The notes under the pieces: generated by a model
Databases searched by the model: none
The model's input: the letters and a program-made list of their open reading frames with translations, nothing else
What the model was told of the DNA's origin: nothing
Shown here: piece after piece, positions 29,917 to 48,326 of the stretch
How positions within the stretch are numbered: the stretch's first letter is position 1
How the letters are laid out: every line of letters begins with the position of its first letter
From: an uncultured Dehalococcoidia bacterium
GTDB lineage: Bacteria; Chloroflexota; Dehalococcoidia; Lucifugimonadales; UBA2962
DNA length: 64,000 nt
Assembly (NCBI GenBank): GCA_964637315.1
Contig: CAZWTT010000001.1
Span: 6,939 to 70,938 of the forward strand
Direction of reading: 5' to 3'
Translations under genes and position numbers: made by a program

Positions 29917-30327
29917 TCAGAGGACGCGAAGTTCGGCTTCGACGATCTCGCCTTCGGGCGTAATTCTGTAGAGGAGCACTTCCGGGCTTTCGTTGTTCTC
30001 AAGGGAGACCAGGATGTAAAACGGGTCCAGCCACCCGCTCTCCATGGCCATGCGCACATCGGTTTGCGACGGGTAGGGGGCGCTGTGGGTGTGGGAGTGG
30101 TAAAAGGCGACCAGGGACAGTCCGCGACTCTCGGCATCCTTGTCGGCGTCGAGGAACTCCTGGGGGTCCATCAGGTATCGGAACGGACTCCGGGCGGTGT
30201 TGGTAATCCGATACCCACGCTCGGCATCGGAGTCTTTTCCGGCGATAAGACCGCAGCACTCGTTCGGGTCCTCGGCACGGGCGTGGGCGATCATGTCATC
30301 GACCACCTCGCGGGGTATCTTAAGCAC
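29917..30327 (-). CDS. JAMM/MPN+ metallopeptidase (Mec+-like)
   Basis: 136 aa with …PNECCGLIAG… and HSHTHSAPYPSQTD (ExnHxHx7Sx2D JAMM motif). Confidence 0.8.
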   Translation of the reverse strand: MLKIPREVVDDMIAHARAEDPNECCGLIAGKDSDAERGYRITNTARSPFRYLMDPQEFLDADKDAESRGLSLVAFYHSHTHSAPYPSQTDVRMAMESGWLDPFYILVSLENNESPEVLLYRITPEGEIVEAELRVL

Positions 30328-35505: not shown

Positions 35506-35707
35506 GGGCTCCTCCAGATCGCCGAAATTGGCCGAAAGCGTATCACAGGATGGGCCACCGACCCCTGTTTAGTCGGGCGCGGACGAGTCGCGCCCTGAAT
35601 GGGTTAGACTACGCACGCTCACGAAGTCTGTTCCCAAAAAGATTAATGGGATGGTCCGTTCCCGACCCTTTACAGTGGGCGGCAGGCACACACACCAAGA
35701 GGTGGAT

Positions 35708-36907
35708 ATGCGCAGGCTCGCGCCCCACGCGTCGTTACTGATACTGGCCCTTGCTCTGACGGTCGCCGCCTCATGCGCCGGCGACGCGGCGGCTCCTTCA
35801 CCATCGTCAGGTGGTGAGGTAGCCGCGGAAACCGGAGGCGCCAGCGAGACCGCCAAGGTAACAACCGCCGCCGGGCCCGGCAAGTTCTCAGTCACCGACA
35901 AGATGGTCGACGCTCGCGGTTACCACGCCGCCGTCAAAATGGCGGACGGCAGGGTGATGGCAATCGCCGGTAAGAGTCGGGGAGGCGCGTCGGCCTGGAA
36001 GGCGTCGTCCATCGAGGCCACCGCCATCTACGATCCGACCACCGGCAAGTGGACCGACTCGGCCCTCCTGTCGACAGTGCGGGAGCATCCAACAGGCCAC
36101 CTCCTGCTCGACGGCCGGGTTATCGTGATCGGTGGCTCCGCCCTGCGCCAGTTGCCGTTGGCCAGCGTCGAGGTCTACGACGTGGCCGCCGATTCTTGGA
36201 CCGAGGTCGCTCCCATGTCGATCGGGCGGTGGCGACACAGCTCGGTGATGTTCGAAGACGGCCGCATCATGGTGGTCGCCGGTGAGACGGTGGACCTCGT
36301 GCTCGTTGCAGGGGCGGAGATCTACGATCCGACAACCGACACGTGGACGCCCGCCGGATCGCTTACCGAGGCCCGCGCACTGCACACCGTGACGTTGCTT
36401 CAGGACGGCCGGGTTCTGGCGGTGGGTGGGGGCAAGCGCGACTCACCTTACATTAAGACGCCGGAGATCTACGACCCGGCCACCGGCGAGTGGACTCAGG
36501 GGGCGCCGACCCAGGTCGCGCACTCGGCGCATGCAGCCACGCTGCTTCCCGACGGCCGGGTGCTGATCACGGGCGGCAAGGGGAAAGTGACCCTGACGGA
36601 GATCTATGACCCCGAGGCCGACGCCTGGACGACCCTGGGTCCAATGTCCGAGTGGCGCGCCGAGCACGCCGCCGTCCTGCTTGCCGACGGCCGCGTCATG
36701 GTCACCGGAGGCATTGGCAAGGTTGCGACATCCGATATTTTTGATCCGGCGACCGATACTTGGTCCACTGGAGCCAACATGGTCGAGACGCGCTACGCAC
36801 ACTCGATGACGCTGCTCGACGATGGCAGGGTCCTCGTCATCGGCGGTAACTCCACCGACGGCGACCAGCGGGGAGTGACCACGGAGGTCGAGGTGTGGGA
36901 GCCTTAG
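35708..36907 (+). CDS. Kelch-repeat beta-propeller protein with a signal peptide and lipobox-like Cys
   Basis: SD AAGAGGTGG before ATG 35708. LLILALALTVAASC, then six or more …(I/V)YDP…W…DGRV(L/M)V(I/T)GG blades. Confidence 0.75.
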   Translation: MRRLAPHASLLILALALTVAASCAGDAAAPSPSSGGEVAAETGGASETAKVTTAAGPGKFSVTDKMVDARGYHAAVKMADGRVMAIAGKSRGGASAWKASSIEATAIYDPTTGKWTDSALLSTVREHPTGHLLLDGRVIVIGGSALRQLPLASVEVYDVAADSWTEVAPMSIGRWRHSSVMFEDGRIMVVAGETVDLVLVAGAEIYDPTTDTWTPAGSLTEARALHTVTLLQDGRVLAVGGGKRDSPYIKTPEIYDPATGEWTQGAPTQVAHSAHAATLLPDGRVLITGGKGKVTLTEIYDPEADAWTTLGPMSEWRAEHAAVLLADGRVMVTGGIGKVATSDIFDPATDTWSTGANMVETRYAHSMTLLDDGRVLVIGGNSTDGDQRGVTTEVEVWEP

Positions 36908-36922: not shown

Positions 36923-37237
36923 TTACTGGCGGTCGACAGTCTCAGCCAGGTCGTGGAGGATTGAATGGACCTCGTCCCGGCCAAAGGGCTTGGCCAGCAA
37001 CCTGTCCGGATCGAAACTGCGGGCGTCCATCATGAGGGCGGATTTGGGGTAGCCGGTAACGATCATGACTTTCGTGGCCGGGTCGGCCACCCTTATCTCG
37101 ATCAGCGCCCCGGCGCTGCCCACCCCGGGCATCACGAGGTCGAGGAACACGGCGTCGAAATGGGTTCTTCGGACCTCCTCGACCGCCCATTCGCCAGACT
37201 CCACGGCCACGCACCGCCACCCCTCCCCTGTGACCAT
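36923..37237 (-). CDS. Single-domain response-regulator receiver; N-terminus unresolved
   Basis: …FDAVFLDLVMPG… (phospho-Asp), …VMIVTGYP…, …LAKPF…. Receiver homology (ALVVDGEPRIRERLEA) continues upstream of ATG 37237 to about 37293 with no ATG/GTG/TTG before the in-frame stop. Confidence 0.6.
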   Translation of the reverse strand: MVTGEGWRCVAVESGEWAVEEVRRTHFDAVFLDLVMPGVGSAGALIEIRVADPATKVMIVTGYPKSALMMDARSFDPDRLLAKPFGRDEVHSILHDLAETVDRQ

Positions 37238-37539
37238 GGCTTCCAGGCGCTCTCGAATGCGTGGTTCGCCATCGACGACTAGGGCCGAGGAGGTCCCGGG
37301 CGATGTGTAGAATCTAACTGTAATTTGCCGTCGTCAGCGTGGTCGGCAATTGGCACAATACCGGGCAGCCAAAACGAATCAATGGCGGGAGGGCCGGCTT
37401 TTGTCTGCATTTCGTGTGCGTGTTGGCCGTCCCGTCGGCGCCGGTCGCTCGACGACATCGTCATGCACGGAGTCTGCACGCCTCATGCCGGTCCAACAGG
37501 ACTGCCCTTGCCGCCCGAAAGACCCACGTAAACGCTCCA

Positions 37540-37569
37540 TTGTTGTGGCCTCAATCCGTCTGTTATACT
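37540..37569 (+). promoter_or_regulatory. Candidate sigma-70 promoter: TTGTTG, 18 nt spacer, (TGt)TATACT
   Basis: -35 TTGTTG at 37540-37545 and extended -10 TGtTATACT at 37561-37569, about 140 nt upstream of the Mo-hydroxylase operon start. Confidence 0.3.
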
Positions 37570-37575
37570 GGCCAC

Positions 37576-37708
37576 GGTTTTTGGGTCCGAGGAGGGCCCG
37601 GCACGGCGGTAAGGGGTACTTCTCCATGCGCTCCCGGCTGACTTGGGTCGCCTTGGCGAAGGCGCCGCATCGCTGAATCTGTGAGAACCACCCCAAGGAG
37701 GCGGACCA
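37576..37708 (+). promoter_or_regulatory. Structured 5' leader enclosing the ribosome-binding site (candidate riboswitch or attenuator)
   Basis: GGUCCG 37584-89 pairs with CGGACC 37702-07. GGGGU 37613-17 pairs with ACCCC 37690-94. There is a CGCCUU/AAGGCG hairpin at 37649-64, and two CUCC anti-SD elements oppose SD AAGGAGG at 37695-701. Confidence 0.3.
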
Positions 37709-38581
37709 TTGAAGTGGATCGATTATCACAGGCCCACGTCCGTCGATGAAGCCGTAGGGCTGCTGAGCCGGTACAACGGGAAGGCCCGAATAATGGCCGG
37801 CGGTACCGACCTTCTCGTTCAATTACGGGTAGGCCGGTACGAGCTTGATGCGGTCATCGACGCTAAGCACATCGGCGAACTGAACGAACTCAAGTACGAC
37901 CCGTCCGGCGGCCTGACGCTTGGGGCGGCGGTGCCCTGTTTCAAGGTGTACGGTAACAAAGCCGTGGCCGCGGCTTATCCAGGGTTGATGGACTCGGCGA
38001 CGCTGATCGGAGGCGTCCAGATCCAGGGCCGAGCGAGTCTTGGAGGCAACCTGGTCAACGCGGCTCCGAGCGGCGACAGTATTCCCTCGCTGATCGCCCA
38101 CAGCGCCGTGGCGAGGGTCGTCGGCTCCAAGGGCGCGCGGGAAATTCCGGTCGAGGAGGTCTGCACCGGCCCCGGACAGACCCAGTTGGCCGATGACGAG
38201 ATACTGGTGTCCATACACGTGCCCGCCCCCTCCAAGGGATTCGGGGCACGCTACGTAAGATTCACTCCAAGGAACGAGATGGACATCGCCGTTGTAGGCG
38301 CGGGCGTCTCGGTGGTCCTGAGCAACGGAACCATCGAATCGGCGAAGGTAGCCCTCTCCGCGGTCGCGCCCACCCCCCTGTTCGTCGAGGCCGCCGGTGC
38401 GGCCCTGGCCGGCAAGGATCCCACAGACGCCAATATCCAGGCCGCGGCGAACGCGGCGAAAGACGCCGCCACCCCGATTACGGACATGCGCGGCACAGTC
38501 GAGTACCGAAAGCACCTCTGCGAGGTCCTCACCCGCAGGGCGCTTCACACCGCCATTGAGCGCGCGCGGGAGGCCAAGTAG
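37709..38581 (+). CDS. Molybdenum-hydroxylase FAD-binding (medium, CoxM/XdhB-like) subunit
   Basis: 290 aa; …ARIMAGGTDLLVQLR… and …GGVQIQGRASLGGNLVNAAPSGD… are FAD-binding-5 domain motifs. Confidence 0.85.
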   Translation: MKWIDYHRPTSVDEAVGLLSRYNGKARIMAGGTDLLVQLRVGRYELDAVIDAKHIGELNELKYDPSGGLTLGAAVPCFKVYGNKAVAAAYPGLMDSATLIGGVQIQGRASLGGNLVNAAPSGDSIPSLIAHSAVARVVGSKGAREIPVEEVCTGPGQTQLADDEILVSIHVPAPSKGFGARYVRFTPRNEMDIAVVGAGVSVVLSNGTIESAKVALSAVAPTPLFVEAAGAALAGKDPTDANIQAAANAAKDAATPITDMRGTVEYRKHLCEVLTRRALHTAIERAREAK

Positions 38582-39070
38582 ATGTCCGGCAAGAAGGTAC
38601 ACGTAACGACGACGATCAACGGAGAGGCCGTGGAGTTCCTCTGCGAGCCACGACAAAGTCTATTGGAGGTCCTGCGGGACGTCGTGCAACTCACCGGCTC
38701 GAAAGAGGGTTGCAACGACGGTAACTGCGGTGCTTGCACGGTCAATCTGGACGGCAGGATAGTCGATAGCTGCCTGGTCCTCGGCGTCGAGGCCGAGGGC
38801 GCAAACATTGGGACGGTCGAGGGCATCGCTTCTCCGGACGGACTGCACCCTATCCAGCAGGCGTTCCTAGAGCACGCCGCCCTGCAGTGCGGCATCTGCA
38901 CGCCGGGCTTCCTCGTAGCCTCCAAGGCTCTGCTTGAAAAGGAGCCTAACCCGTCGGAGGAGCGCATTCGCATGTGGCTCGCCGGCAACCTGTGTCGTTG
39001 TACCGGCTACGACAAGATCGTACGCGCGGTGATCGACGCGGCGAGCCGAATGTCGGGTGCGGCAGCCTGA
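38582..39070 (+). CDS. Molybdenum-hydroxylase [2Fe-2S] (small, CoxS-like) subunit
   Basis: 162 aa with cluster motifs CNDGNCGACTV and CGICTPGF…NLCRCTGY. Confidence 0.9.
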   Translation: MSGKKVHVTTTINGEAVEFLCEPRQSLLEVLRDVVQLTGSKEGCNDGNCGACTVNLDGRIVDSCLVLGVEAEGANIGTVEGIASPDGLHPIQQAFLEHAALQCGICTPGFLVASKALLEKEPNPSEERIRMWLAGNLCRCTGYDKIVRAVIDAASRMSGAAA

Positions 39071-39179
39071 TTTGGTGGATATTAGACCAAACGAGTAAAG
39101 AATTGCTCGGAGGAGAGAGCGTCGACGCAGTCGAGGCGGAAGTGGCCCCGGCGGGGCCCAAGCTAGTACAGGGGAGACG

Positions 39180-41483
39180 ATGACAACCACCTACGAGCCA
39201 AACCAGGTTCTTTCGAATCAGTCCTTCAACGTGGTCGGGACCCGGCCGATTCGGCACGACGGCGCCGACAAGGTCACGGGCCGGGCCAAGTACGGCGCCG
39301 ACTACACGGCCGTGGGATTGCTACACGCCAAGACGTTGCGCAGTCCCCACGCCCACGCTCGAATCAAGTCGGTCGACACGTCCAAGGCCGAGGCGCTTGC
39401 CGGGGTAAGAGCCGTTGTTACGTCAAAGGACTTCCCGCCAGCCAAGGACACCGCCGACTTCGGTCTGGGCGGACAGCCGATGGACAGGTTCCGGGGCAAT
39501 CTGCTGGCTGGCGACAAGGCGCTTTACCGGGGCCATGCGATCGCCGCAGTGGCGGCCACCAACCCTCATATAGCGGAAGAGGCGGTCGGGTTGATCGAGG
39601 TGGACTACGAAGTGCTGCCAGCCATACTAACGGCTCCGGAAGGCATGGCCGACGACGCTCCCATCCTCATACCCGACCTGACCACCCAGGAGTTCGGCAA
39701 CGACACCGGTCGCAACTCCAACATCGCCGACCATTTCCAGCACAAGTTGGGCGACATTGACAAGGGTTTCGCCGACGCCGACGTGGTGGTGGAACGCACC
39801 TTTGACACCAAGACCGTGCACCAGGGCTACATCGAGCCTCACAACGTGACGGCGCTTTGGAACGACGACGATCGTATCCACGTGTACTGCAGTACCCAGG
39901 GCTCGTTCACGGTTCGGGCGGCGATTTCCGAAGCCTTGGCGATCCCCGTCTCCAAGATCAGATGTACGCCGATGGAGATCGGCGGTGGCTTCGGGGGGAA
40001 GATCGCTGTTTACAGTGAACCGGTTGCCGCGATGCTCTCCAAAAAGGCAGGCCACAGGCCGGTGAAGATGGTCATGTCAAGGTCCGAGGTCTTCGAGGGC
40101 ACGGGCCCAACCAGCGGCTCGCACATGATTATCAAGATGGGCGCCACCAAGGACGGCAAGATAGTCGCAGCCCTGGCCGACCTGCAAATGGAGGCGGGTG
40201 CATACCCCGGCTCTCCCGTGGGAGCGGCGGCCATGTGTATCTTTTCCGCCTACGACGTGGACAACGTCGTGATCGACGGCTACGACGTCGTGGTCAACAA
40301 GCCCAAGGCGGGCGCCTACCGGGCACCCGGGGCGCCCAACGCGGCGTTCGCGGCCGAGCAAGTGGTCGACGAACTGGCGCAGAGGTTGGGTATCGACCCC
40401 TTGGAGCTTCGCCTGAAAAACGCGGCCAAAGAGGGGGTCCGCCGTCCGGACGGACCCGTCCACCCGCGTATCGGCTGTGTCGAGGTGCTGGAGGCCATGC
40501 GCGACCATGACCACTACAGTTCACCCATCGCCCCCGCTAGGCGCGGCGGCAATACCGGGCGCGGGGTGGCCGTTGGGTACTGGTTTAACATCGGCTTCGC
40601 CTCCGCGTGCAACATCGCCGTCAACAACGACGGCACCGTCAACCTGATAGAAGGCTCCACCGACATCGGCGGAAGCAGGGCTTCCATCGCTATGCAGGCG
40701 GCCGAGGTGCTCGGAATCGCGGCTGAGGAGGTCATTCCCCAGGTCGTGGACACCGACTCCATCGGATACACAGCCATCACCGGCGGCAGCCGGACTACCT
40801 TCGCCACCGGTTGGGCGGCCTACGAGGCGGCCCAAGACGTAAAGCGGCAGGTCGTCGAGCGAGCGGCCCAGATCTGGGGCGTGGAGCCCGACTCGGTGGA
40901 GATGCAAGACGGGGTCGTTCGCTCCAAGACTGACACCGAGCTGAACATGACGTTCAAGGAACTGGCTGGGCAGATCAACGACACCGGAGGACCCATCGTC
41001 GGTCGCGCGGCGGTCGACCCCGCCGGGGCCGGTGGTTCCTACTCCGGCCAGATCGTCGACGTCGAGGTGGATCCGGAGACGGGCAAGACCGACGTGTTGC
41101 GATTCACCATTGTCCAGGATGCGGGCAAGGCCATCCACCCCGCCTACGTCGAGGGCCAGATGCAAGGCGCCGCCGCCCAGGGCATCGGTTGGGCGCTGAA
41201 CGAGGAGTACTATTACTCCGAGGACGGCAAAATGGACAATGCCAGCTTCCTCGACTATCGCATGCCGACCACCCTCGACCTGCCCATGATTGATACGGTC
41301 ATCGTCGAGGTCGCCAACCCGGGCCATCCGTTCGGGGTCAGAGGCGTAGGCGAGGCCCCCATCGTCTCGCCGCAAGCCGCGGTGGCCAACGCCATCGCGG
41401 ACGCCACGGGCCTGCGCATGGCCTACCTTCCGATCAACTCCACGGCAATAATGGAGGCGAGCTGGGTCGAAGGTGCGAGCTAG
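39180..41483 (+). CDS. Molybdopterin-binding large subunit, xanthine-dehydrogenase/aldehyde-oxidase family, paralogue 1
   Basis: 767 aa; …RPIRHDGADKVTGRAKYGADY…, …GGGFGGK…, …AGAYRAPGAPN…, …VRGVGEAPI…. Confidence 0.9.
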   Translation: MTTTYEPNQVLSNQSFNVVGTRPIRHDGADKVTGRAKYGADYTAVGLLHAKTLRSPHAHARIKSVDTSKAEALAGVRAVVTSKDFPPAKDTADFGLGGQPMDRFRGNLLAGDKALYRGHAIAAVAATNPHIAEEAVGLIEVDYEVLPAILTAPEGMADDAPILIPDLTTQEFGNDTGRNSNIADHFQHKLGDIDKGFADADVVVERTFDTKTVHQGYIEPHNVTALWNDDDRIHVYCSTQGSFTVRAAISEALAIPVSKIRCTPMEIGGGFGGKIAVYSEPVAAMLSKKAGHRPVKMVMSRSEVFEGTGPTSGSHMIIKMGATKDGKIVAALADLQMEAGAYPGSPVGAAAMCIFSAYDVDNVVIDGYDVVVNKPKAGAYRAPGAPNAAFAAEQVVDELAQRLGIDPLELRLKNAAKEGVRRPDGPVHPRIGCVEVLEAMRDHDHYSSPIAPARRGGNTGRGVAVGYWFNIGFASACNIAVNNDGTVNLIEGSTDIGGSRASIAMQAAEVLGIAAEEVIPQVVDTDSIGYTAITGGSRTTFATGWAAYEAAQDVKRQVVERAAQIWGVEPDSVEMQDGVVRSKTDTELNMTFKELAGQINDTGGPIVGRAAVDPAGAGGSYSGQIVDVEVDPETGKTDVLRFTIVQDAGKAIHPAYVEGQMQGAAAQGIGWALNEEYYYSEDGKMDNASFLDYRMPTTLDLPMIDTVIVEVANPGHPFGVRGVGEAPIVSPQAAVANAIADATGLRMAYLPINSTAIMEASWVEGAS

Positions 41484-41519
41484 GAGGCGGTCCGGGCGGG
41501 CCCGGATCGGCCGGAGTAG

Positions 41520-41876
41520 ATGGCAACGGTCTTCATACCATCACTCATGCAGGATCTGACGGATGGTGAAAAGACCGTCGAGGTGCCCGGTGGCACGGTG
41601 CGTGAGATCGTCAACGGCCTGGAGGGCAAATACCCTGGAGTGAAGGACCGCCTGATGGACGGCTTTCGTCTGAAGGGAAACATTAACGTTGCGGTAGATG
41701 GCGAGATCAGCCCCGTAGGTGTCCTCGGCGAGGTCGGAGAGAGTAGCGAGGTGCATTTTCTGCCCGCGATAGCTGGCGGGTCACTGCGTGATAGCGAATG
41801 CCAGCCCGTATCGACCATCAGTCTTTTCAGGCGGTCGCGGGCCGGCGCGGAGCATTACTACGGGGAGAAGCTATGA
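41520..41876 (+). CDS. ThiS/MoaD/CysO-family beta-grasp sulfur-carrier protein with a 31-codon extension after Gly-Gly
   Basis: MATVFIPSLMQDLTDGEKTVEV…KYPGVKDRLMDG…VHFLPAIAGG (GG at 41775-41780). The frame stays open to TGA 41874-41876, which overlaps the next ATG. Confidence 0.7.
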   Translation: MATVFIPSLMQDLTDGEKTVEVPGGTVREIVNGLEGKYPGVKDRLMDGFRLKGNINVAVDGEISPVGVLGEVGESSEVHFLPAIAGGSLRDSECQPVSTISLFRRSRAGAEHYYGEKL

Positions 41877-44179
41877 CCACTATTTACGAGCCGAACGTCG
41901 TACTGGCCACCGACGAATACAACGTCGTCGGGACTAGGCCCATCCGTCCCGACGGCGCGGACAAGGTGACCGGCAAGGCCAAGTACGGTGCCGACTACAA
42001 CGCCACCGGGCTACTGTACGCCAAGGTGCTGCACAGTCCGCATGCCCATGCCCGCATCAAGTCGATAGACACCTCCAAGGCGGAGGCGTTTCTCGGCGTG
42101 GCGGCGGTGGTGACCGGCGCCGACATGCCCACCACTAGGGAGTCCGACCCGGCCGACTTCGGCCTCGGCCCTCAGCCGATGAAGTACCTGCGCAACAACG
42201 CCATCGCCAGGGGCAAGGTCCTCTATAGCGGCCATGCGGTGGCCGCCGTTGCTGCCGTCAACACCCACGTGGCGGAAGAGGCTATGGGTCTGATCGAGGT
42301 GGATTACGAAGTCTTGCCGTCCGTCCTGACGGTGCAGGATGCGATGAAGGACGACGCGCCGGTTCTGCACGACGATCTGTTCACCACCGAGTTCGGCAAT
42401 AAGACCGACCGTAACACCAATATCGCCAACCACTTCCAACACAAGATGGGCGATCTGGAGAAGGGCTTCGCCGAGGCCGACGTGGTAGTGGAACGCGAGT
42501 TCGACACCGCCACCGTCCACCAGGGCTACATAGAGCCCATGAACGTCACCGCGCTGTGGAACGACGACGACCGGGTGCACGTGTGGATGAGCACTCAGGG
42601 CCCGTTCCAGTTCCGCGACGCCATCGCGATAGCCCTGGAACTGCCCCAGTCGCAGGTTAAGGTGACGCCGATGGAGATCGGCGGCGGATTCGGCGGCAAG
42701 TTCCCCCTGTACCACGAGATCGCTGCGGTCCTGCTGTCCAAGAAGGCGGGTCGCCCGGTCAAGATCGCGATGACTCGCAAAGAGGCCTTCGAGAGTTCGG
42801 GGCCGACCTCTGGCTCGCATATGCGCATGAAGATCGGTGCGACCAAAGAGGGTAAAATCACCGCTGCCGAGACCGAGTTGATCTTCGAAGCGGGGGGCTT
42901 CCCCGGTTCGCCGGTGGACGCCGGGGCGATGTGTGTGTTCTCGGCCTATGACATTCCCAATGTCGTTATCGACGGCTACGACGTCGTCGTCAACAAGCCG
43001 AAGACAGCGGCCTATCGGGCTCCCGGCGCGACGCATGCGGCGATGGCGGCCGAGACGGTGGTGGACGAGTTGTGTGAAAAGCTTGGTCTCGACGTTCTCG
43101 ACTTCAGGCTGCAAAACTGCGCCAAGGAGGGCACACGACGAGCGGACGGCCCGGTGAACCCAAAGATCGGCGGTTTGGAGACCCTGGAGGCGGTCAAGGC
43201 CCACGCGCACTGGAACGCTCCTCTCACCCCCGCCAAGCGCGGCGGCAAGGTTGGTAGGGGAATCGCCCTCGGCTACTGGTTCAATGCCGGTATGCAGTCG
43301 GCCGCCACCATCAGCGTCAACGGTGATGGGACCATCAACCTGGTTGAGGGCTGTCCCGACATCGGTGGTAGCAGGGCCTCCATCGCCATGCAGGCGGCTG
43401 AGGTGCTCGGTATCAGCGCCGAGGAGGTCAACCCGCAGGTAGTGGACACCGACTCCATCGGTTTCACCTTCGGCACCGGCGGCTCGCGCACCACGTTTGC
43501 GACGGGCTGGGCGGCCTATGAGGCGGCCAACGACGTCAAGCGTCAACTGGTCGATAGGGCGGCCAAGATCTGGGGCGTCGACCCCGATTCGGTGGAGATG
43601 GCGGAAGGTATGGTCCGTTCCAAGACCGACACCGAGCTGAACATGACATTTAAGGCCCTTTCGGCCCAGCTCAACGACACCGGCGGCCCGATCGTCGGTC
43701 GCGGTGCCGTGAATCCGTCCGGCGTGGGCGGCGCCTTAGCCGCAACCGTAGCCGATGTAGAAGTAGACCCGGAGACGGGCAAGGTCGACTTGCTTCGTTT
43801 CACCATCGCTCAGGACGCCGGCAAGGCCGTCCACCCCGCCTATGTCGAGGGACAGCTACAGGGAGGAGCCGCGCAGGGCATTGGGTGGGCTCTGAACGAG
43901 GAGTACTATTACTCCGAGGACGGTCGCTTGGACAACCCCACGTTCCTGGACTACCGTATTCCGACTGCCCTCGACTTGCCGATGATCGACACCATCGTCG
44001 TCGAGGTGCCCAACCCCGGCCATCCGTACGGTGTCCGCGGCGTGGGTGAGGTCTGCATCGTGCCGCCACCGGCGGCGCTGGCAAACGCCATCCACGACGC
44101 CGTCGGAGTGCGCATGGACGTACTTCCAATGAACCCCGCAGCGGTCATGAGCGCCCTGTGGAAGCAGGGTGGCTCCTAG
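41873..44179 (+). CDS. Molybdopterin-binding large subunit, paralogue 2
   Basis: ATG 41873 gives MTTIYEPNVV…, parallel to paralogue 1 (MTTTYEPNQV…), and the two are colinear throughout. …TAAYRAPGATH…, …VRGVGEVCI…. Confidence 0.9.
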   Translation: MTTIYEPNVVLATDEYNVVGTRPIRPDGADKVTGKAKYGADYNATGLLYAKVLHSPHAHARIKSIDTSKAEAFLGVAAVVTGADMPTTRESDPADFGLGPQPMKYLRNNAIARGKVLYSGHAVAAVAAVNTHVAEEAMGLIEVDYEVLPSVLTVQDAMKDDAPVLHDDLFTTEFGNKTDRNTNIANHFQHKMGDLEKGFAEADVVVEREFDTATVHQGYIEPMNVTALWNDDDRVHVWMSTQGPFQFRDAIAIALELPQSQVKVTPMEIGGGFGGKFPLYHEIAAVLLSKKAGRPVKIAMTRKEAFESSGPTSGSHMRMKIGATKEGKITAAETELIFEAGGFPGSPVDAGAMCVFSAYDIPNVVIDGYDVVVNKPKTAAYRAPGATHAAMAAETVVDELCEKLGLDVLDFRLQNCAKEGTRRADGPVNPKIGGLETLEAVKAHAHWNAPLTPAKRGGKVGRGIALGYWFNAGMQSAATISVNGDGTINLVEGCPDIGGSRASIAMQAAEVLGISAEEVNPQVVDTDSIGFTFGTGGSRTTFATGWAAYEAANDVKRQLVDRAAKIWGVDPDSVEMAEGMVRSKTDTELNMTFKALSAQLNDTGGPIVGRGAVNPSGVGGALAATVADVEVDPETGKVDLLRFTIAQDAGKAVHPAYVEGQLQGGAAQGIGWALNEEYYYSEDGRLDNPTFLDYRIPTALDLPMIDTIVVEVPNPGHPYGVRGVGEVCIVPPPAALANAIHDAVGVRMDVLPMNPAAVMSALWKQGGS

Positions 44180-44213
44180 CCGTCCGATACATACGATAAC
44201 GGTTCGACCGCAA

Positions 44214-44247
44214 GGGGGGCCGGGGCATCGTCCCGGCTCCCCGTTTT
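44214..44247 (+). terminator. Rho-independent terminator after the Mo-hydroxylase operon
   Basis: 11-bp GC-rich stem (44214-44224 pairs with 44232-44242, one G-U) with a 7-nt loop, followed by GUUUU. Confidence 0.6.
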
Positions 44248-44262
44248 CACGCAGGAGCGCAG

Positions 44263-45192
44263 ATGTCTAGCAACGGCTACAGCGGGGTGATCACGCCGCT
44301 TCTCACACCCATTTCCGCCGACGAGCGGGTGCACGAATCCTCCCTACGCAGCCTTGTTGACTACCAGCTCGACAACGGTGTCTCCGGCCTCTGGGTCTCG
44401 GGTACCACGGCCGAGTTCGCCTCACTGTCCGAGTCCGAGCGCATTGCTGGTATCGAGATCGTGATCGACCAGGCGGCGGGTCGCGTCCCAGTTATCGCCA
44501 ACATAACCATGCCAGGCACCGTCCTCACCATCGATCTGGGCCGCAAAGTGGCCGGCAAGGTCAGGGCGGTGGCGGCCACGCCACCCTACTATTACCCTCA
44601 CTCTCAGGAAGAGTTGAAGATACACTACCGGTGTATCCGAGAGGCGCTGGACGCCCCGGTATGGGTCTACAACATTCCCCAGATGCACAAGACCGCCGTG
44701 GCCCCGGCCACCGTGGCCGACCTCGCCGACGAGGGCGTCGTCGAGGGCATCAAGGACAGCTCCGGAGCGGGCGAGTTGCTGGCCGAGTTGCACGCGCTTC
44801 GCACCGTTCGCGAGTTCGAGTTGGTGTCGACCCTGGGAACCATGCTGCGCGCAACCACCGCGGTGACGCTCGGCGCCCAGGGCATCATCCCAGGCCTGGC
44901 GAACGCCCTCCCGGCCATCATGGCCCGTGCCTGGGAGGCCGGGCGGATCGGCGACGTCGAGACGGCCCGTGCATGCGACGCTCAGATAGTGGCCGGCCTG
45001 AGATTGCAGACGCTTGGTAAGAGCGGCAGTGGGGTTCAGGGCTCGGTCTACTCCGGTTTGAAAGCCGCCCTTTTGCATATGGGCGTTATCAAGACCGATC
45101 ACGTCACGGCGCCCTTCAAGCCTCTGACCGACGAAGAGCGAGGGCAGATTCCCGGCATCCTCGCGGGATTGGGCCTCGGTAAGAGTCGGTAG
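44263..45192 (+). CDS. DapA-family class I aldolase (dihydrodipicolinate synthase / N-acetylneuraminate-lyase-like)
   Basis: …GVITPLLTP…VSGLWVSGTTAEFASLS…, …YNIPQ…, …GIKDSSG (Schiff-base Lys region). Confidence 0.85.
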   Translation: MSSNGYSGVITPLLTPISADERVHESSLRSLVDYQLDNGVSGLWVSGTTAEFASLSESERIAGIEIVIDQAAGRVPVIANITMPGTVLTIDLGRKVAGKVRAVAATPPYYYPHSQEELKIHYRCIREALDAPVWVYNIPQMHKTAVAPATVADLADEGVVEGIKDSSGAGELLAELHALRTVREFELVSTLGTMLRATTAVTLGAQGIIPGLANALPAIMARAWEAGRIGDVETARACDAQIVAGLRLQTLGKSGSGVQGSVYSGLKAALLHMGVIKTDHVTAPFKPLTDEERGQIPGILAGLGLGKSR

Positions 45193-45293
45193 TATCCGGA
45201 TCGGGCCTGAGGTCGGGTTATAATCGGGTCAGACCCGCGACCCCGAATTGGTCTGGACGCGGATTGGCGGTACAGGCGGGCACCAGGAGTTAT

Positions 45294-46112
45294 ATGAGCG
45301 ACGAAGAGTTCAACTTCGCGGCATTTTCCAGCAACCCCTTCTACCAGAAACTCACCGACAAGCTCATTGAGCTTGCCGAAGTCAAGAACGGCGAGCGCAT
45401 CGTCGACTTGGCCTGCGGCACCGGCCTGGTCACCCGTCGCATCATCGCCAACCTGCGAGACGCCCGCGACACGGTGATTATCGGAGTCGACCATTCGGCG
45501 ACCGCCCTGAAGCAGGCCGTAACCGACCTCAAGGACGTTCGCGAAACCGCGGTCATGTTCGTGCACAGCCAGGTCGAGAACGTCTCCGACGCGATAAAGG
45601 ATAAGGTGGACGTCGTCTTTTTCTGCAACGCTATCCACTACGTCCCCGACAAGGGCGAGTTGCTGGACCGCATCGCCGGCGCCATCAAGCCGGGCGGCAA
45701 GCTGGTCTTTAACACCTCCTTCTACGACGGGCCGGTCGACGAGGAGACCCGGCTCTTTTTCCGCAAGTGGATGTTTAAGGCGCAGCGCACACTTCGCCGA
45801 GAGCACGGCCTGTCGATCCAGCGACTGGAGAAGGTCGAGTCGCGTAAGCAGCTAACGGCGCAGGAGTACCGGGACCTCCTCGAAGATCACGGCTTCAAGA
45901 TAGCGAAGGAAAAGATCGACGCGGTCAAGGTGCCCCTGCAGGGGTGGCTGGACATCTCGTCGTTCTCCGACTTCATCGAAGGCGCCATGCCGGGCGTACC
46001 TCTCGATAAGGCCAGCGAAGCGCTGAAAAAGGCCGTCCGGGAGACCTTCGACGAGATGAAGATCACTTACACAACCCGCAACTGGCTCGACGTAGTAGCC
46101 GTCCGGGTCTAG
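45294..46112 (+). CDS. Class I SAM-dependent methyltransferase
   Basis: SD AGGAG before ATG 45294; motif I IVDLACGTG. Confidence 0.75.
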   Translation: MSDEEFNFAAFSSNPFYQKLTDKLIELAEVKNGERIVDLACGTGLVTRRIIANLRDARDTVIIGVDHSATALKQAVTDLKDVRETAVMFVHSQVENVSDAIKDKVDVVFFCNAIHYVPDKGELLDRIAGAIKPGGKLVFNTSFYDGPVDEETRLFFRKWMFKAQRTLRREHGLSIQRLEKVESRKQLTAQEYRDLLEDHGFKIAKEKIDAVKVPLQGWLDISSFSDFIEGAMPGVPLDKASEALKKAVRETFDEMKITYTTRNWLDVVAVRV

Positions 46113-46192
46113 GAAGGCTCTCCGCGGGGCAAAACCCCGCTCGTCAAGGTTTCTTCGCGCAAAGCCGCTCATCGCTTTGGCAAATCACAGGG

Positions 46193-47251
46193 CTATATGG
46201 ATTGAGGTATTAGTACTACCTTGCCGGCTTCGCCGCTGGCGAGCAGGTCCATCGCGTCGCCAATGCCTTCCAACGGCATGCGGTGCGTGACCAGCGGGGA
46301 CAGGTCCACGACGCCGGTCTCCAATAGCAGCCTGGTCTTGTACCAGGTCTCGAAAATACGCCTGCCGTTGAGCGCCAGGACGGTAAGGTTTTTGAAGATC
46401 ATGTCCTCGGCCACGTCGATGAGGACCGGCTTGGACGGTATCCCGAAAAGATTGACGTGGCCTCCTCTACGCACACCTTTGAACGCCCCGTCGATGGCGG
46501 CCGGGGCACCACTCATCTCCAAGACGATGTCCACCCCGTAGCTGTCCGATTGCGACAACCACATGGCCGTCTCCTCCCCCGTCCCCTCCGTGGGCTTGAA
46601 GACCTCGTCCGCCCCCATCTTGCGGGCGAGGGAGAGGCGGTAGTCGTTGACGTCAGATGCCACCACACGGGACGCCCCGGACGCCTTGGCGATGGCGATG
46701 GAAAATAGACCGATCGGACCGCAGCCCAACACGCCGACGCTCTGACCCGTCAGGTCGTTGGCAAGTGTGGAGAACACCGCGTTGCCGAACGGCTCCTGCA
46801 GCGTGGCGATCTCCGGCGGTAGCCGATCCCTGTCGGTATGCCACAGGACCTTCTCCGGCACCGCGATGTACTCGGCGAAACAGCCGTCCCGGTCGACTCC
46901 GAGTATCGACGTCTCAGGGCACATATGGGCCTGGCCGGTGCGGCACTGGAAGCACACCCCGCAGGTAATGTGGCTCTCGGCGGATACGAAGTCGCCGACG
47001 GCGGCGCGCTCAATGCCGGTGCCCGTCTCCACCACCGTACCGGCCAGCTCGTGGCCCAGGGTGATGGGCGGTCGGACACGAGCGGCGCTCCAGTCGTCCC
47101 ACAGCCAGATGTGCAGGTCGGTCCCGCAGATGCTTGCCGCCTCCACCTTGATCAGCACCTCGCCGGTCCCGATGGCCGGGATAGGTACTTCCAATACCTG
47201 GGCCCCCGGGCCTGGGCCCAGCTTGCGCACCGCTCGCATCGTCCCCTTCAT
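46193..47251 (-). CDS. tdh: Zn-dependent L-threonine 3-dehydrogenase
   Basis: …ASICGTDLHIWLWDDWS…ITLGHELAG…, structural Zn CGVCFQCRTGQAHMC, and GCGPIG. Confidence 0.85.
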   Translation of the reverse strand: MKGTMRAVRKLGPGPGAQVLEVPIPAIGTGEVLIKVEAASICGTDLHIWLWDDWSAARVRPPITLGHELAGTVVETGTGIERAAVGDFVSAESHITCGVCFQCRTGQAHMCPETSILGVDRDGCFAEYIAVPEKVLWHTDRDRLPPEIATLQEPFGNAVFSTLANDLTGQSVGVLGCGPIGLFSIAIAKASGASRVVASDVNDYRLSLARKMGADEVFKPTEGTGEETAMWLSQSDSYGVDIVLEMSGAPAAIDGAFKGVRRGGHVNLFGIPSKPVLIDVAEDMIFKNLTVLALNGRRIFETWYKTRLLLETGVVDLSPLVTHRMPLEGIGDAMDLLASGEAGKVVLIPQSI

Positions 47252-47295: not shown

Positions 47296-48213
47296 CTACA
47301 AAAGAGCCAGTGGGTTGACCGGCGAGCCCGTGCCGCCCTCGAATACGAGGGGAGCGCACACCAGCATAAAATCATAACGTCCGAGCGCGGCGCACACCCG
47401 GGCCAGCGGCTCGATCAAGGCGTTGTCCACCATCGCCAGACCGTAGGCGTTGATGGCGCCGTGCACGGTCACCGGCAGGTCGTACTGGTTGGGCGCAGCG
47501 TCCTCCATGTCCCACACCAGCAGCCCGACGTCGTTGTCCTTAAAGAACGGCAGCGTCGAGCCGTCCAGGCCGGGGTACGGCTCGCCGATCGGCGCGTAGT
47601 AGCCGCCGTTGGCGGCTGCGTACTGCTCCCTGCCGCAGTGGATGACGACGGCGTCGCCCGGCTCCAGCTCAATCCCCTCGGCGGCCGCGATCTCCGCCAG
47701 TTCCCAGCCGTGCACCGGTGTGTCCATGTCGACATGGACGCCTCCCCGGTGCTTGGGCACGTCCAGCAGCACGCCCCGCGTCACTATCCCGTCGCGCCAC
47801 GCGTCGACACCGCCGAACTTGGCACCGTCGAATGTCAGTGTTGTGTTGGAGTCGTGCCCCTCGAACATGCCGTCGGCGTCCCAGAAGTGGCTCAGGGCGT
47901 CGATGTGAGTGATCACGAATCCGTGCTGGAATACGCCGAGGTGGTCCATAGCCGCGCCCACGTTCTCATCGACGTCGACGGTCTTAATGAACTGCTGCAC
48001 CGGCTGCGGGTTGTCGGGCGCCGGCTCGGTCGGCAGCGGACGACTGAGTGATACCGTCTGCCCCGTCCGCACCAACCCGGCCGCGGCCAGCCGCTTCTCG
48101 GCCGTGATCAGGTTCACCGTCCCGGCGCTCGGGTTGTCCGGCCACCTGCCCCAGTTGCTGCGATCCTTAAGATAGGCGGCGATTTCGTCTCTATGCGGAA
48201 TTCGTCTGTCCAA
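47296..48213 (-). CDS. 'Putative cyclase' family protein (kynurenine-formamidase-like), paralogue B
   Basis: TTG 48213 with GGAGTGGAG upstream gives MDRRIPHRDEIAAYLKDRSNWGRW…, parallel to paralogue A. …THIDALSHFW…. Confidence 0.75.
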   Translation of the reverse strand: MDRRIPHRDEIAAYLKDRSNWGRWPDNPSAGTVNLITAEKRLAAAGLVRTGQTVSLSRPLPTEPAPDNPQPVQQFIKTVDVDENVGAAMDHLGVFQHGFVITHIDALSHFWDADGMFEGHDSNTTLTFDGAKFGGVDAWRDGIVTRGVLLDVPKHRGGVHVDMDTPVHGWELAEIAAAEGIELEPGDAVVIHCGREQYAAANGGYYAPIGEPYPGLDGSTLPFFKDNDVGLLVWDMEDAAPNQYDLPVTVHGAINAYGLAMVDNALIEPLARVCAALGRYDFMLVCAPLVFEGGTGSPVNPLALL

Positions 48214-48326
48214 GTCGTTACTCCACTCCCGTGCGACCCGATCCACTTTATGGAGGGGCTGGCAAGTCACCCTAACAGGCCCACCAAATGATGGTGGGTA
48301 TTCGCCGTCGCAACGACGGCGCAGTT

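What the first reader, a model, noticed from the sequence alone, without database searches (positions are those of the whole stretch)
41520..41876. CysO/MoaD-type sulfur carrier whose reading frame continues 31 codons past Gly-Gly, inserted between two Mo-hydroxylase catalytic subunits
**What the sequence shows**
- The 87-residue core (MATVFIPSLMQDLTDGEKTVEV…VHFLPAIAGG) is a typical ThiS/MoaD/CysO beta-grasp ending in GG (41775-41780).
- Instead of a stop, the frame continues as SLRDSECQPVSTISLFRRSRAGAEHYYGEKL.
- It ends at a TGA that overlaps the ATG of the second large subunit (ATGA at 41873-41876).

**Why it matters**
- Sulfur carriers need a free C-terminal Gly-Gly for adenylation and thiocarboxylation.
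- Carriers with extra residues are known to be trimmed by JAMM peptidases; the QbsE/QbsD type is an example from memory, and Mec+ acts on CysO adducts.
- A JAMM gene is present at 29917-30327, but it is not adjacent.
- No E1-like (MoeB/ThiF) or XdhC-type maturation gene is visible in the operon.
- I do not recognise a beta-grasp carrier placed between two hydroxylase L subunits as a described arrangement.

**Simpler explanation**
- A single substitution (TGA or TAA to TCA at 41781-41783) would also create the extension, so it may be trivial.
Basis: partly seen in the sequence, partly recalled or inferred. Interest (0 to 1): 0.65.

Follow-up and report, generated by a model that had tools for sequence, protein, structure and literature searches.

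The report
Capped CysO-like sulfur carrier in Mo-hydroxylase operon
A small ubiquitin-like sulfur-carrier gene of a marine SAR202 bacterium is really translated 31 residues past its Gly-Gly end, but non-conserved tails are normal for this family, so the long tail is ordinary read-through of a spacer; the carrier's conserved place in a molybdenum-enzyme operon is the more interesting part.

Summary
ORF 41520-41876 encodes an 87-residue CysO-type beta-grasp ending in Gly86-Gly87, then 31 more codons, and stops at a TGA inside ATGA, the start of the second large subunit. Assembled contigs from three independent metagenome studies and a 99%-identical protein carry the same tail.

The tail is not a one-off. 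In 91 related loci (SAR202/Dehalococcoidia), 82% of carriers continue past Gly-Gly:
- 47% by one variable residue.
- The rest by 2-57 residues.

The core is under strong purifying selection (dN/dS 0.05-0.14). The GG-to-next-gene spacer is unalignable, 15-131 nt long, and the tail is predicted disordered. A stop-free run of 31 codons has a chance probability of about 0.4. So this tail is translated spacer in a family made as capped pro-proteins.

The likely mechanism resembles QbsE/QbsD and CxnE/CxnF: a GG-specific hydrolase exposes Gly-Gly, then an E1 encoded elsewhere activates it. The candidate hydrolase is the intact JAMM at 29917-30327, which is syntenic in relatives.

Gene order FAD subunit, 2Fe-2S subunit, large subunit, carrier, then a DHDPS-family gene recurs in about 85% of species-level loci. 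The second large subunit is a duplication specific to this clade. The sulfur acceptor is unknown. I rate this a new variant of a known kind, of moderate interest.

The parts
41520..41780 (+). Core of the CysO-type ubiquitin-like sulfur carrier (87 residues, beta-grasp), ending in Gly86-Gly87.
   Evidence: Pfam ThiS covers residues 11-87. The family profile matches CysO 4N6E_B at 1e-15 and 3DWG_C at 1.5e-10. The AF2 core has pLDDT about 85. Foldseek places CysO first, with TM-score 0.85-0.89 normalised to the target. dN/dS against relatives is 0.05-0.14.
41775..41780 (+). Gly-Gly codons (GGC GGG), the predicted maturation and activation site.
   Evidence: G86 and G87 are invariant in the 22-sequence alignment and in all 91 loci.
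41781..41873 (+). 31-codon C-terminal cap (SLRDSECQPVSTISLFRRSRAGAEHYYGEKL). It is the translated carrier-to-L2 spacer.
   Evidence: It cannot be aligned with the spacers of relatives, which are 15-131 nt long. pLDDT is below 50 with no secondary structure. The chance of being stop-free is 0.42. The RNA fold is not significant, z=-0.66.
41873..41876 (+). ATGA overlap: the carrier's stop codon (TGA, 41874-41876) overlaps the L2 start codon (ATG, 41873-41875).
   Evidence: Direct reading. The same read-through to an ATGA overlap occurs in L011.
41862..41867 (+). Shine-Dalgarno-like GGGGAG for L2, lying inside the cap-coding stretch.
   Evidence: Direct reading.
37709..38581 (+). FAD-binding medium subunit (M) of the Mo hydroxylase.
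   Evidence: Pfam FAD_binding_5 plus CO_deh_flav_C.
38582..39070 (+). 2Fe-2S small subunit (S).
   Evidence: Pfam Fer2 plus Fer2_2.
39180..41483 (+). Molybdopterin-binding large subunit L1. The carrier gene follows it after 36 nt.
   Evidence: Pfam Ald_Xan_dh_C, MoCoBD_1 and MoCoBD_2. The closest solved structures are 4-hydroxybenzoyl-CoA reductase alpha and CoxL. It is below every NCBIfam equivalog cut-off.
41873..44179 (+). Large subunit L2, a paralogue of L1 (71% identity) present only in this clade.
44263..45192 (+). DHDPS/N-acetylneuraminate-lyase family protein, not DapA. It is the most constant downstream partner of the carrier.
   Evidence: Pfam DHDPS. The dapA equivalog scores 124 bits against a cut-off of 206. 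Present downstream in 56 of 66 loci.
45264..46112 (+). SAM-dependent methyltransferase, syntenic in the window's clade and a few others.
29917..30327 (-). Stand-alone JAMM/MPN+ metallopeptidase (136 residues), the candidate GG-specific hydrolase. It lies 11.2 kb upstream.
   Evidence: Prok-JAB at 6e-26. It scores 80 bits on the desampylase model, below that model's cut-off. PDB relatives are 2KKS and PfJAMM1. The motif E22...H77-S-H79-x7-S88-x2-D91 is intact. It holds the same syntenic position in L002, L009, L012-14, L016, L020 and L022-24, and lies within 7-8 kb in other arrangements (L048, L057, L058, L078, L086).

Best explanation
The gene encodes a CysO-type ubiquitin-like sulfur-carrier protein made as a pro-protein.

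**Why there is a tail**
- The 87-residue beta-grasp core ends in an invariant Gly-Gly. Everything after it is an unconstrained cap.
- In this GC-rich genome no stop occurs in the 93-nt spacer before L2. The ribosome therefore reads through to the ATGA overlap and adds a disordered 31-residue tail.

**How it is matured (inferred)**
- Before use, the cap is cut off after Gly87 by a GG-specific amidohydrolase.
- The best candidate is the stand-alone JAMM peptidase at 29917-30327.
- Such an enzyme is expected in a CysO-type cycle anyway, since Mec+ hydrolyses the CysO-Gly-Gly-Cys amide. That would explain why selection for a stop exactly after Gly-Gly is relaxed across the whole family.
- The exposed Gly-Gly is then adenylated and thiocarboxylated by a MoeZ/MoeB-type E1 encoded outside this 64-kb window.

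**What the thiocarboxylate is for (unresolved)**
- It donates sulfur in a process tied to the conserved operon of Mo hydroxylase (M-S-L), carrier and DHDPS-family enzyme.
- The acceptor could be the pterin cofactor or its sulfido ligand, a small 2-oxo-acid-type metabolite, or a general thiol amino-acid cycle.

**Shown:** gene, fold, family, the tail's reality, its non-conservation, operon conservation, an intact syntenic JAMM.
**Inferred:** cleavage, the identity of the protease, activation in trans, the sulfur acceptor.
For: **The carrier and its tail**
- Fold and family.
- The tail is real.
- Tails are the family norm: 0 residues in 16 loci, 1 residue in 43, 2-57 residues in 32, out of 91.
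- Within single clades the +1 residue varies (A/S/T/Y/H/F/C...) while the length stays at one. This looks like selection on a short cap and not on its sequence.
- The core is under purifying selection (dN/dS 0.05-0.14), with invariant G86-G87.
- The spacer is unalignable, and the tail is disordered.
- Read-through is unsurprising by chance (p=0.42).

**The JAMM candidate**
- JAMM intact and syntenic.
- In other clades different hydrolase genes sit directly next to the carrier. A PIG-L/LmbE-type gene overlaps the carrier's stop in 29 loci, and a retropepsin-like ORF occurs in 12 loci.

**Precedents**
- CxnE (Gly-Gly plus a decapeptide) with the JAMM CxnF and MoeZ in trans, and QbsE (Gly-Gly-Cys-Phe) with QbsD (PMC5925218).
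- HcyS-Ala/HcyD in Wolinella. The paper is cited in PMC5764234; the detail of the extra alanine is from my memory.

**Operon linkage**
- An L subunit lies upstream in 55 of 66 species-level loci with full flanks, within 300 nt in 39 of them. A DHDPS-like gene lies downstream in 56 of 66.
- No terminator-like site was found across 37000-46500.
Against: - No biochemical evidence exists for cleavage, thiocarboxylation or any acceptor.
- The JAMM is 11 kb away on the other strand, with unrelated genes between. It lies within 10 kb in only 13 of 66 loci.
- The JAMM is kept in the AT-rich clade whose carriers have no tail (L020, L022-24). Tail removal therefore cannot be its only role.
- No E1, rhodanese, CysM, MoaE or XdhC gene was found in the window or among recurrent neighbours in 16 divergent loci. 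The rest of the pathway is assumed.
- One monophyletic clade keeps the carrier next to tdh with no Mo hydroxylase or DHDPS-like gene within 10 kb. This weakens an exclusive functional tie to the operon.
Confidence: 0.6

Rival explanations
1. A dedicated cofactor-maturation carrier. The protein acts like a private MoaD, supplying dithiolene sulfur to molybdopterin, or it delivers the terminal sulfido ligand in place of an XdhC-type chaperone, specifically for the adjacent hydroxylase. Cap removal would still be needed.
For: - The carrier gene is tightly linked to the L gene, 8-50 nt downstream in many loci.
- No XdhC gene lies in any examined neighbourhood.
- JGI names the protein a molybdopterin synthase sulfur carrier subunit.
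- Precedent in an unrelated pterin enzyme: the tungsten AOR operon of A. aromaticum carries two MoaD-like genes, absent from the purified enzyme and proposed to act in cofactor biosynthesis (PMC6365974).
- There are weak NCBIfam hits to moaD_arch and SAMP1.
Against: - By sequence and by fold the protein is CysO-type, not MoaD-type. E. coli MoaD appears only at Foldseek rank 13, and no bacterial moaD equivalog hit was found.
- No MoaE gene is nearby.
- One clade keeps the carrier without the hydroxylase.
- I know of no case where a protein thiocarboxylate supplies Mo=S.
Confidence: 0.22
2. A housekeeping CysO-like cycle with merely inherited synteny. The carrier serves general thiol amino-acid or cofactor synthesis together with the JAMM, as in Mec+/CysO/CysM or HcyS/HcyD/MetY. 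It sits after the hydroxylase genes only for historical or regulatory reasons.
For: - The closest relatives are genuine CysO proteins.
- A one-residue tail is chemically the same bond as the CysO-Cys adduct that Mec+ cleaves (established knowledge of the M. tuberculosis pathway).
- A whole clade retains the gene beside tdh, among housekeeping genes such as SelA, AhpC, Dxr and RseP.
- The JAMM is retained where there is no tail.
Against: - No CysM or MetY-type PLP enzyme lies near the carrier in any of the contexts examined.
- The M-S-L-carrier-DHDPS order is kept across carriers only 65-70% identical and through several rearrangements. That is more than passive synteny usually gives.
Confidence: 0.2
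3. Not a C-terminally activated carrier at all. The beta-grasp protein is a structural or assembly subunit, or a chaperone, of the Mo hydroxylase, so extra C-terminal residues do not matter and are never removed.
For: - Tails of very different length are tolerated.
- No E1 gene is nearby.
- Beta-grasp domains are widely reused as adaptors (PMC1949818).
Against: - Gly86-Gly87 and the preceding HFLPA motif are invariant across the family, while everything after is free. That is the signature of a functional Gly-Gly terminus.
- Tails of 0-1 residue are strongly over-represented (59 of 91). A free-running frame would give only a few percent per codon.
Confidence: 0.1
4. Loss of function or artefact. 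The stop after Gly-Gly was lost by mutation or assembly error in this genome, leaving a disabled carrier.
For: - The 31-residue tail is the second longest of 91.
- It has no detectable conservation or structure.
Against: - The same sequence appears in assembled contigs of three independent studies and in a 99%-identical protein.
- The core is intact and under strong purifying selection.
- Sense codons at position 88 are the rule in the clade.
- The region is represented in a metatranscriptome.
Confidence: 0.05
5. A SAMP/TtuB-like protein modifier. After trimming, the carrier is conjugated to lysines of target proteins, for example the hydroxylase subunits, and the JAMM acts as the deconjugase.
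For: - The best NCBIfam hits are SAMP1 for the carrier and desampylase for the JAMM.
- Capped precursors are typical of conjugating ubiquitin-like proteins (general knowledge).
Against: - Both hits are far below their cut-offs: 31.6 against 60 bits, and 80.5 against 130 bits.
- No E2- or E3-like genes were found.
- CysO relatives are much closer.
Confidence: 0.08

Closest known systems
CysO / Mec+ / CysM system of Mycobacterium tuberculosis, and CysO of Amycolatopsis orientalis (PDB 3DWG, 4N6E)
   Same: - Closest by sequence profile (1.5e-10 and 1e-15).
- Closest by predicted fold (33-39% identity, TM-score 0.85-0.89 normalised to the target).
- Same length class and the same Gly-Gly end of the fold.
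- A small JAMM hydrolase exists in the genome region.
   Different: - Both solved CysO proteins end exactly at Gly-Gly.
- Here 31 residues follow, and 1-57 residues follow in 82% of the family.
- There is no cysM next to it.
- The JAMM is 11 kb away instead of in the same operon.
- The constant neighbours are a Mo hydroxylase and a DHDPS-family enzyme.
Capped sulfur carriers with a cognate JAMM: QbsE/QbsD (thioquinolobactin), CxnE/CxnF (chuangxinmycin), HcyS-Ala/HcyD (Wolinella methionine synthesis)
   Same: - Residues follow Gly-Gly: 2 in QbsE, 10 in CxnE, 1 in HcyS.
- A JAMM is proposed or shown to expose Gly-Gly.
- The E1 may act in trans, as MoeZ does for CxnE (PMC5925218).
   Different: - In those systems the JAMM is encoded beside the carrier, within a defined biosynthetic cluster.
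- Here the cap length is free-running (0-57 residues).
- The JAMM is only loosely linked.
- The surrounding operon is a Mo hydroxylase of the xanthine dehydrogenase/CoxL family, which I did not find described with such a carrier (literature searches).
MoaD-like genes aorD/aorE in the tungsten aldehyde oxidoreductase operon of Aromatoleum aromaticum
   Same: A ThiS/MoaD-superfamily gene is co-transcribed with a pterin-dependent oxidoreductase. It is not part of the purified enzyme, and a cofactor-maturation role is suspected (PMC6365974).
   Different: - The enzyme family is unrelated (tungsten AOR against Mo hydroxylase).
- Those proteins are described as MoaD-like, whereas this one is CysO-like.
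- The passage read does not mention a C-terminal cap for them.
Thermus thermophilus MoaD-related protein (PDB 1V8C), and fused MoaX of M. tuberculosis
   Same: - A MoaD-like fold with Gly-Gly at about residue 87, followed by further polypeptide.
- MoaX must be cleaved at Gly-Gly to be active (PMC4326299, by its title).
   Different: Those extensions are folded, conserved domains: a second domain in 1V8C and MoaE in MoaX. Here the extension is disordered and non-conserved.

Membership tests
ThiS/MoaD/CysO beta-grasp sulfur-carrier superfamily (PF02597) | Beta-grasp fold and a profile match above the family threshold. | tested here: met
   Pfam ThiS scores 27.4 bits against a cut-off of 22.5, over residues 11-87. 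The AF2 core has pLDDT about 85. The top 30 or so Foldseek hits are sulfur carriers and Urm1/SAMP proteins.
ThiS/MoaD/CysO beta-grasp sulfur-carrier superfamily (PF02597) | Gly-Gly at the end of the fold. | tested here: met
   G86-G87 are invariant in the alignment and in 91 loci.
ThiS/MoaD/CysO beta-grasp sulfur-carrier superfamily (PF02597) | Gly-Gly is the free C-terminus of the translated product. | tested here: not met
   31 codons follow Gly87. This is met only after a presumed processing step. 16 of 91 relatives do end at Gly-Gly.
ThiS/MoaD/CysO beta-grasp sulfur-carrier superfamily (PF02597) | C-terminal adenylation and thiocarboxylation by a ThiF/MoeB-type E1. | not testable with these tools
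   No E1 gene lies in the window or among recurrent neighbours. Whole genomes could not be searched.
CysO (protein-thiocarboxylate cysteine synthesis) | Closest sequence and structure relatives are CysO proteins. | tested here: met
   4N6E_B at 1e-15 and 3DWG_C at 1.5e-10. Foldseek ranks 1-3.
CysO (protein-thiocarboxylate cysteine synthesis) | Operon with CysM (a PLP O-phosphoserine sulfhydrylase) and Mec+. | tested here: not met
   No PALP/CysM-type gene lies in the operon, in the window, or in five annotated contexts. The JAMM is 11 kb away.
Capped carrier plus JAMM systems (QbsE/QbsD, CxnE/CxnF, HcyS/HcyD) | Extra residues after Gly-Gly. | tested here: met
Capped carrier plus JAMM systems (QbsE/QbsD, CxnE/CxnF, HcyS/HcyD) | A catalytically intact JAMM encoded with the carrier. 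| tested here: inconclusive
   The JAMM is intact (motif read directly) and syntenic in the clade. However, it is 11.2 kb upstream on the opposite strand, and lies within 10 kb in only 13 of 66 loci.
Capped carrier plus JAMM systems (QbsE/QbsD, CxnE/CxnF, HcyS/HcyD) | The JAMM cleaves the cap after Gly-Gly. | not testable with these tools
   This needs an enzyme assay or proteomics.
MoaD (molybdopterin synthase small subunit) | A match to the MoaD equivalog models, and a MoaE partner. | tested here: not met
   Only moaD_arch was hit, at 28 bits against a cut-off of 49.5. No bacterial moaD model was hit. E. coli MoaD is a distant structural match, Foldseek rank 13 at 21% identity. No MoaE gene was found nearby.
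SAMP-type protein modifiers | A match to the SAMP1 model, and a desampylase partner. | tested here: not met
   SAMP1 scores 31.6 bits against a cut-off of 60. The desampylase model scores 80.5 bits against 130.

The most novel reading that the evidence does not exclude
The carrier is the sulfur donor of a so far undescribed SAR202 pathway. A protein thiocarboxylate would work together with the DHDPS-family enzyme and the Mo hydroxylase on a 2-oxo-acid or aldehyde-type metabolite.
- The DHDPS-family enzyme is a Schiff-base-forming TIM barrel. That is the same mechanistic class as ThiG and BexX, the known partners of ThiS and CysO.
- Alternatively, the carrier replaces XdhC-type chaperones by delivering the sulfido ligand of the molybdenum centre.
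- In either case the variable caps, and the clade-specific hydrolases beside the carrier (JAMM, PIG-L/LmbE-type, retropepsin-like), would form a maturation or recycling layer.
Probability: 0.15. Interest if true: 0.8.

Novelty: new variant of a known kind. Interest (0 to 1): 0.45.

Why it matters
**What is not new**
- Sulfur carriers made as capped precursors and opened by JAMM peptidases are known from a few secondary-metabolite and amino-acid pathways.

**What is new here**
- A whole, abundant marine lineage carries such a carrier. 468 species-level genomes gave matches, and the 80 best are all Dehalococcoidia, SAR202 or other Chloroflexota.
- Cap length in this family is free-running.
- The gene is fixed inside an operon for a xanthine-dehydrogenase-family Mo hydroxylase plus a DHDPS-family enzyme. 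I found no description of this pairing in the literature.

**If the link is functional**
- It would point either to a new route of molybdenum-cofactor maturation or to a new sulfur-transfer step in the metabolism of SAR202. This group is thought to oxidise recalcitrant dissolved organic matter (PMC5395668).

**For genome annotation**
- ThiS-family ORFs that run past Gly-Gly in this group should not be 'corrected' or called pseudogenes.

Tried and rejected
1. **Single lost stop codon.** Rejected: codon 88 is a sense codon throughout the clade, and the spacer is hypervariable.
2. **Sequencing or assembly error.** Rejected at the level of assembled contigs from three studies and by P0001.
3. **Longer L2 starting at the ATG at 41798, so that the region would be L2 coding.** Rejected: L1 and the orthologous L2 proteins start at the MTT(T/I)YEPN motif.
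4. **A conserved RNA structure or terminator in the spacer.** None found: z=-0.66, and no terminator-like sites.
5. **GC content as the driver of tail length across the family.** No overall correlation (Spearman rho 0.04). The AT-rich clade does always stop at once.
6. **Codon-position GC of the tail as a coding test.** Uninformative with 31 codons.
7. **Search for E1, rhodanese, MoaE, XdhC or CysM in the window and in neighbours of 16 divergent loci.** Nothing recurrent. The census lists only the 25 most frequent families, so single occurrences could be missed.
8. **DHDPS-like gene as a true DapA.** Rejected: it is below the equivalog cut-off, and the Arg138 position holds Met.
9. **Literature.**
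   - A search for 'HcyS' returned only homocysteine papers.
   - The Wolinella papers are not held in the library.
   - No paper was found linking SAR202, or any Mo hydroxylase operon, with a ThiS/CysO-type carrier.
Full report
**1. What is in the sequence**

- The ORF 41520-41876 (plus strand, 118 codons) is as described.
- Codons 86-87 are GGC GGG (41775-41780). Codon 88 is TCA. The frame stays open for 31 codons and ends at TGA 41874-41876.
- That TGA overlaps the ATG at 41873 of the next gene (ATGA).
- A GGAG precedes the carrier's ATG, at 41513-41516. A GGGGAG at 41862-41867 precedes the next ATG.

Pfam and NCBIfam give the following operon:

| Coordinates | Product |
|---|---|
| 37709-38581 | FAD-binding subunit (M) |
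| 38582-39070 | 2Fe-2S subunit (S) |
| 39180-41483 | large molybdopterin subunit L1 |
| 41520-41876 | the ThiS-family carrier |
| 41873-44179 | second large subunit L2 (71% identical to L1) |
| 44263-45192 | DHDPS/NAL-family protein |
| 45264-46112 | methyltransferase |
| 46193-47251 (minus) | L-threonine 3-dehydrogenase (convergent) |

No promoter-like or terminator-like site was found across 37000-46500.

**2. The carrier is CysO-type**

- The Pfam ThiS profile ends exactly at Gly87.
- A profile of 22 family members finds CysO of A. orientalis (4N6E_B, 1e-15) and of M. tuberculosis (3DWG_C, 1.5e-10). These rank well ahead of MoaD-related and SAMP proteins. Both CysO chains end at Gly-Gly.
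- AlphaFold2 gives a confident beta-grasp for residues 1-85. Residues 86-118 have pLDDT below 50 and no secondary structure.
- Foldseek ranks the two CysO structures first (33-39% identity, TM-score 0.85-0.89 normalised to the target). E. coli MoaD is only at rank 13.

**3. The tail is real**

- Assembled contigs of three independent marine metagenome studies are identical to the window over 41300-42100.
- A metatranscriptome has contigs over part of the gene.
- A 99%-identical protein from a JGI assembly has the same 118 residues apart from D15G.
- These are assemblies, so rare variants cannot be excluded.

**4. The tail is not special**

The protein search returned 627 homologues. A scan of species-representative genomes found 468 matches. 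The best 80 are all Dehalococcoidia, SAR202 or Chloroflexota MAGs.

Tail lengths after Gly-Gly in 91 loci:

| Tail length | Loci |
|---|---|
| 0 | 16 |
| 1 | 43 |
| 2-8 | 17 |
| 12-16 | 12 |
| 23 | 1 |
| 31 (this window) | 1 |
| 57 | 1 |

- Tails share no sequence. In the clade next to tdh the single extra residue is T, Y, S, H, A, F or C, while its length stays at one.
- The core has invariant G86-G87 and an almost invariant SEVHFLPA motif. Its dN/dS against relatives is 0.05-0.14, with synonymous sites near saturation.
- The DNA from the Gly-Gly codons to the next gene is 15-131 nt long and cannot be aligned, even among close relatives.
- AT-rich relatives hit a stop at once. The GC-rich window and L011 both read through the whole spacer to an ATGA overlap.
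- At local base composition, 42% of random 31-codon stretches lack a stop.

Conclusion: the 31 residues are translated spacer. The notable fact is that the family as a whole does not keep a stop directly after Gly-Gly, yet it does keep tails short (59 of 91 are 0-1 residue). That is the pattern of capped ubiquitin-like precursors.

**5. Gene neighbourhood**

- The close relatives L001-L004 and L009-L024 have the same order as the window, including L2.
- More distant loci have M-S-L-carrier-DHDPS-like, M-S-L-L-carrier, or M-S-L-x-carrier-PIG-L-(retropepsin-like)-DHDPS-like.

Counts among the 66 species-level loci with full 10-kb flanks:

| Feature | Loci |
|---|---|
| L gene upstream | 55 (39 within 300 nt) |
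| DHDPS-like gene downstream | 56 |
| Second L between carrier and DHDPS-like | 11 (only the window's clade) |
| Neither L nor DHDPS-like | 9 |

- The 9 loci with neither form one clade. There the carrier sits next to tdh among housekeeping genes.
- So the carrier was not inserted between two L genes. L2 is a lineage-specific duplicate placed after the carrier.
- The DHDPS-like protein is not DapA. It is below the equivalog cut-off.

**6. Candidate processing enzymes**

- The JAMM at 29917-30327 is a 136-residue Prok-JAB protein.
- Its E...HSHx7Sx2D motif is intact. The consensus for this motif is quoted in PMC5925218.
- It resembles PfJAMM1 and 2KKS.
- It keeps the same syntenic place, next to a cytidylate-kinase-like gene, throughout the window's clade. 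That includes the AT-rich relatives whose carriers have no tail.
- It also lies 6.6-8.2 kb upstream of the carrier in three other arrangements. In all it is within 10 kb in 13 of 66 loci.
- This is suggestive linkage, not adjacency. Retention of the JAMM without tails implies a role beyond trimming, such as hydrolysis of Gly-Gly-X adducts as Mec+ does.
- In other clades a PIG-L/LmbE-type hydrolase gene overlaps the carrier's stop (29 loci). A 120-residue retropepsin-like ORF lies between the carrier and the DHDPS-like gene (12 loci).

**7. What is missing**

- No ThiF/MoeB, rhodanese, MoaE, XdhC or CysM-type gene was found in the window.
- None was found in five Pfam-annotated contexts.
- None was among the recurrent families in 137 neighbour ORFs from 16 divergent loci.
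- Activation must therefore happen in trans, as proposed for CxnE with MoeZ (PMC5925218).

**8. Mechanism and comparison**

- The best-supported reading is a capped CysO-type carrier.
- It would be opened by a GG-specific hydrolase, probably the JAMM. It would then be thiocarboxylated by a distant E1 and used in a process linked to the Mo hydroxylase/DHDPS-like operon.
- Published precedents for caps plus a JAMM are CxnE/CxnF and QbsE/QbsD, and HcyS-Ala/HcyD (from memory; the paper is cited).
- A precedent for a MoaD-like gene inside a pterin-enzyme operon is aorD/aorE.
- It fails membership of CysO proper (no CysM), of MoaD (no model hit, no MoaE) and of SAMP (below cut-offs). It fits 'works like a capped sulfur carrier' best.
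- The sulfur acceptor is open. The options are cofactor maturation, a small-molecule step with the Schiff-base enzyme, a housekeeping thiol cycle, or protein modification. They are listed as rivals with rough weights.

**9. Verdict**

- The specific oddity, the 31-residue tail, is ordinary for this family and needs no special event.
- The family-level picture is a new variant of a known kind and is moderately interesting. It comprises capped carriers of free-running length, fixed in a Mo-hydroxylase operon of an abundant uncultured marine lineage, with different hydrolases beside them in different clades.

Noticed in passing
window 39180-41483 and 41873-44179: Two large (Mo-binding) subunit paralogues, 71% identical, share a single FAD subunit gene and a single 2Fe-2S subunit gene. 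Both keep the GGGFGGK and GVGE motifs. This suggests either two isoenzymes or a mixed L1/L2 complex. The duplication is confined to this clade (11 of 66 loci).
   Followed up: partly
L007 10264-10989; same position in 29 loci (for example L045, L073, L036): In two other SAR202 clades a PIG-L/LmbE-family zinc hydrolase gene starts inside the stop codon of the carrier gene. This is a possible alternative enzyme for trimming the cap or releasing an adduct.
   Followed up: partly
L007 11092-11457; L058 10440-10799; 12 loci in all: A retropepsin-like ORF of about 120 residues (weak Pfam Asp_protease_2 and gag-asp_proteas hits) lies between the carrier and the DHDPS-like gene. A ubiquitin-like protein next to a retropepsin-like protease recalls eukaryotic Ddi1 (a comparison from memory).
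   Followed up: partly
L018, L019 and L021, spacer after the carrier gene: The spacers of some relatives contain long GC-rich inverted repeats, for example GGCTCGGCTCAGCCGAGCC and TATAGGGGCGCAC...GTGCGCCCCTATA. These may be REP-like or attenuator hairpins. The window's spacer has none (z=-0.66).
   Followed up: no
window 25806-28555 and 62180-63241: There are three tandem, partly overlapping phosphotriesterase-family (PTE) paralogues and a fourth copy 34 kb away. The fourth was confirmed by Pfam. The first three were read from their translations.
   Followed up: no
window 23951-24035 and 29100-29184: An 85-nt direct repeat (92% identity) copies a fragment of the Kelch-repeat gene 28399-29877 to a site 5 kb upstream. 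Two full Kelch-repeat (GlxA-like) genes lie at 28399-29877 and 35651-36907.
   Followed up: partly
window 1262-2419 (minus strand): A sulfide:quinone reductase-like flavoprotein. Its best NCBIfam hit is type III SQR at 213 bits, below the cut-off. It is sulfur-related but 39 kb from the carrier.
   Followed up: no
window 22185-23342 (plus strand): A class-V aminotransferase-family protein (Pfam Aminotran_5, 7e-33). This family includes the NifS/IscS cysteine desulfurases as well as AGXT-type aminotransferases. Which of the two it is was not resolved.
   Followed up: no
window 47296-48537 and 49615-50547 (minus strand): Two paralogous Cyclase-family (PF04199, kynurenine-formamidase-like) genes flank a GH63-like gene. 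The arrangement is syntenic in close relatives.
   Followed up: no
window 30396-31133 (minus strand): A cytidylate-kinase-like gene (PF13189) is the constant neighbour of the JAMM gene across clades (the JAB-CK2 pair in the window's clade and in L048). Mo hydroxylases of this type often use the cytosine dinucleotide form of the cofactor, but no link was tested.
   Followed up: no
window 46193-47251 (minus strand) and 20074-21264 (plus strand): L-threonine 3-dehydrogenase scores above its NCBIfam cut-off. A glycine C-acetyltransferase (Kbl)-like gene, read from its translation, lies 25 kb away. The tdh gene is the conserved downstream landmark of the carrier, even in the clade that lacks the hydroxylase.
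   Followed up: partly
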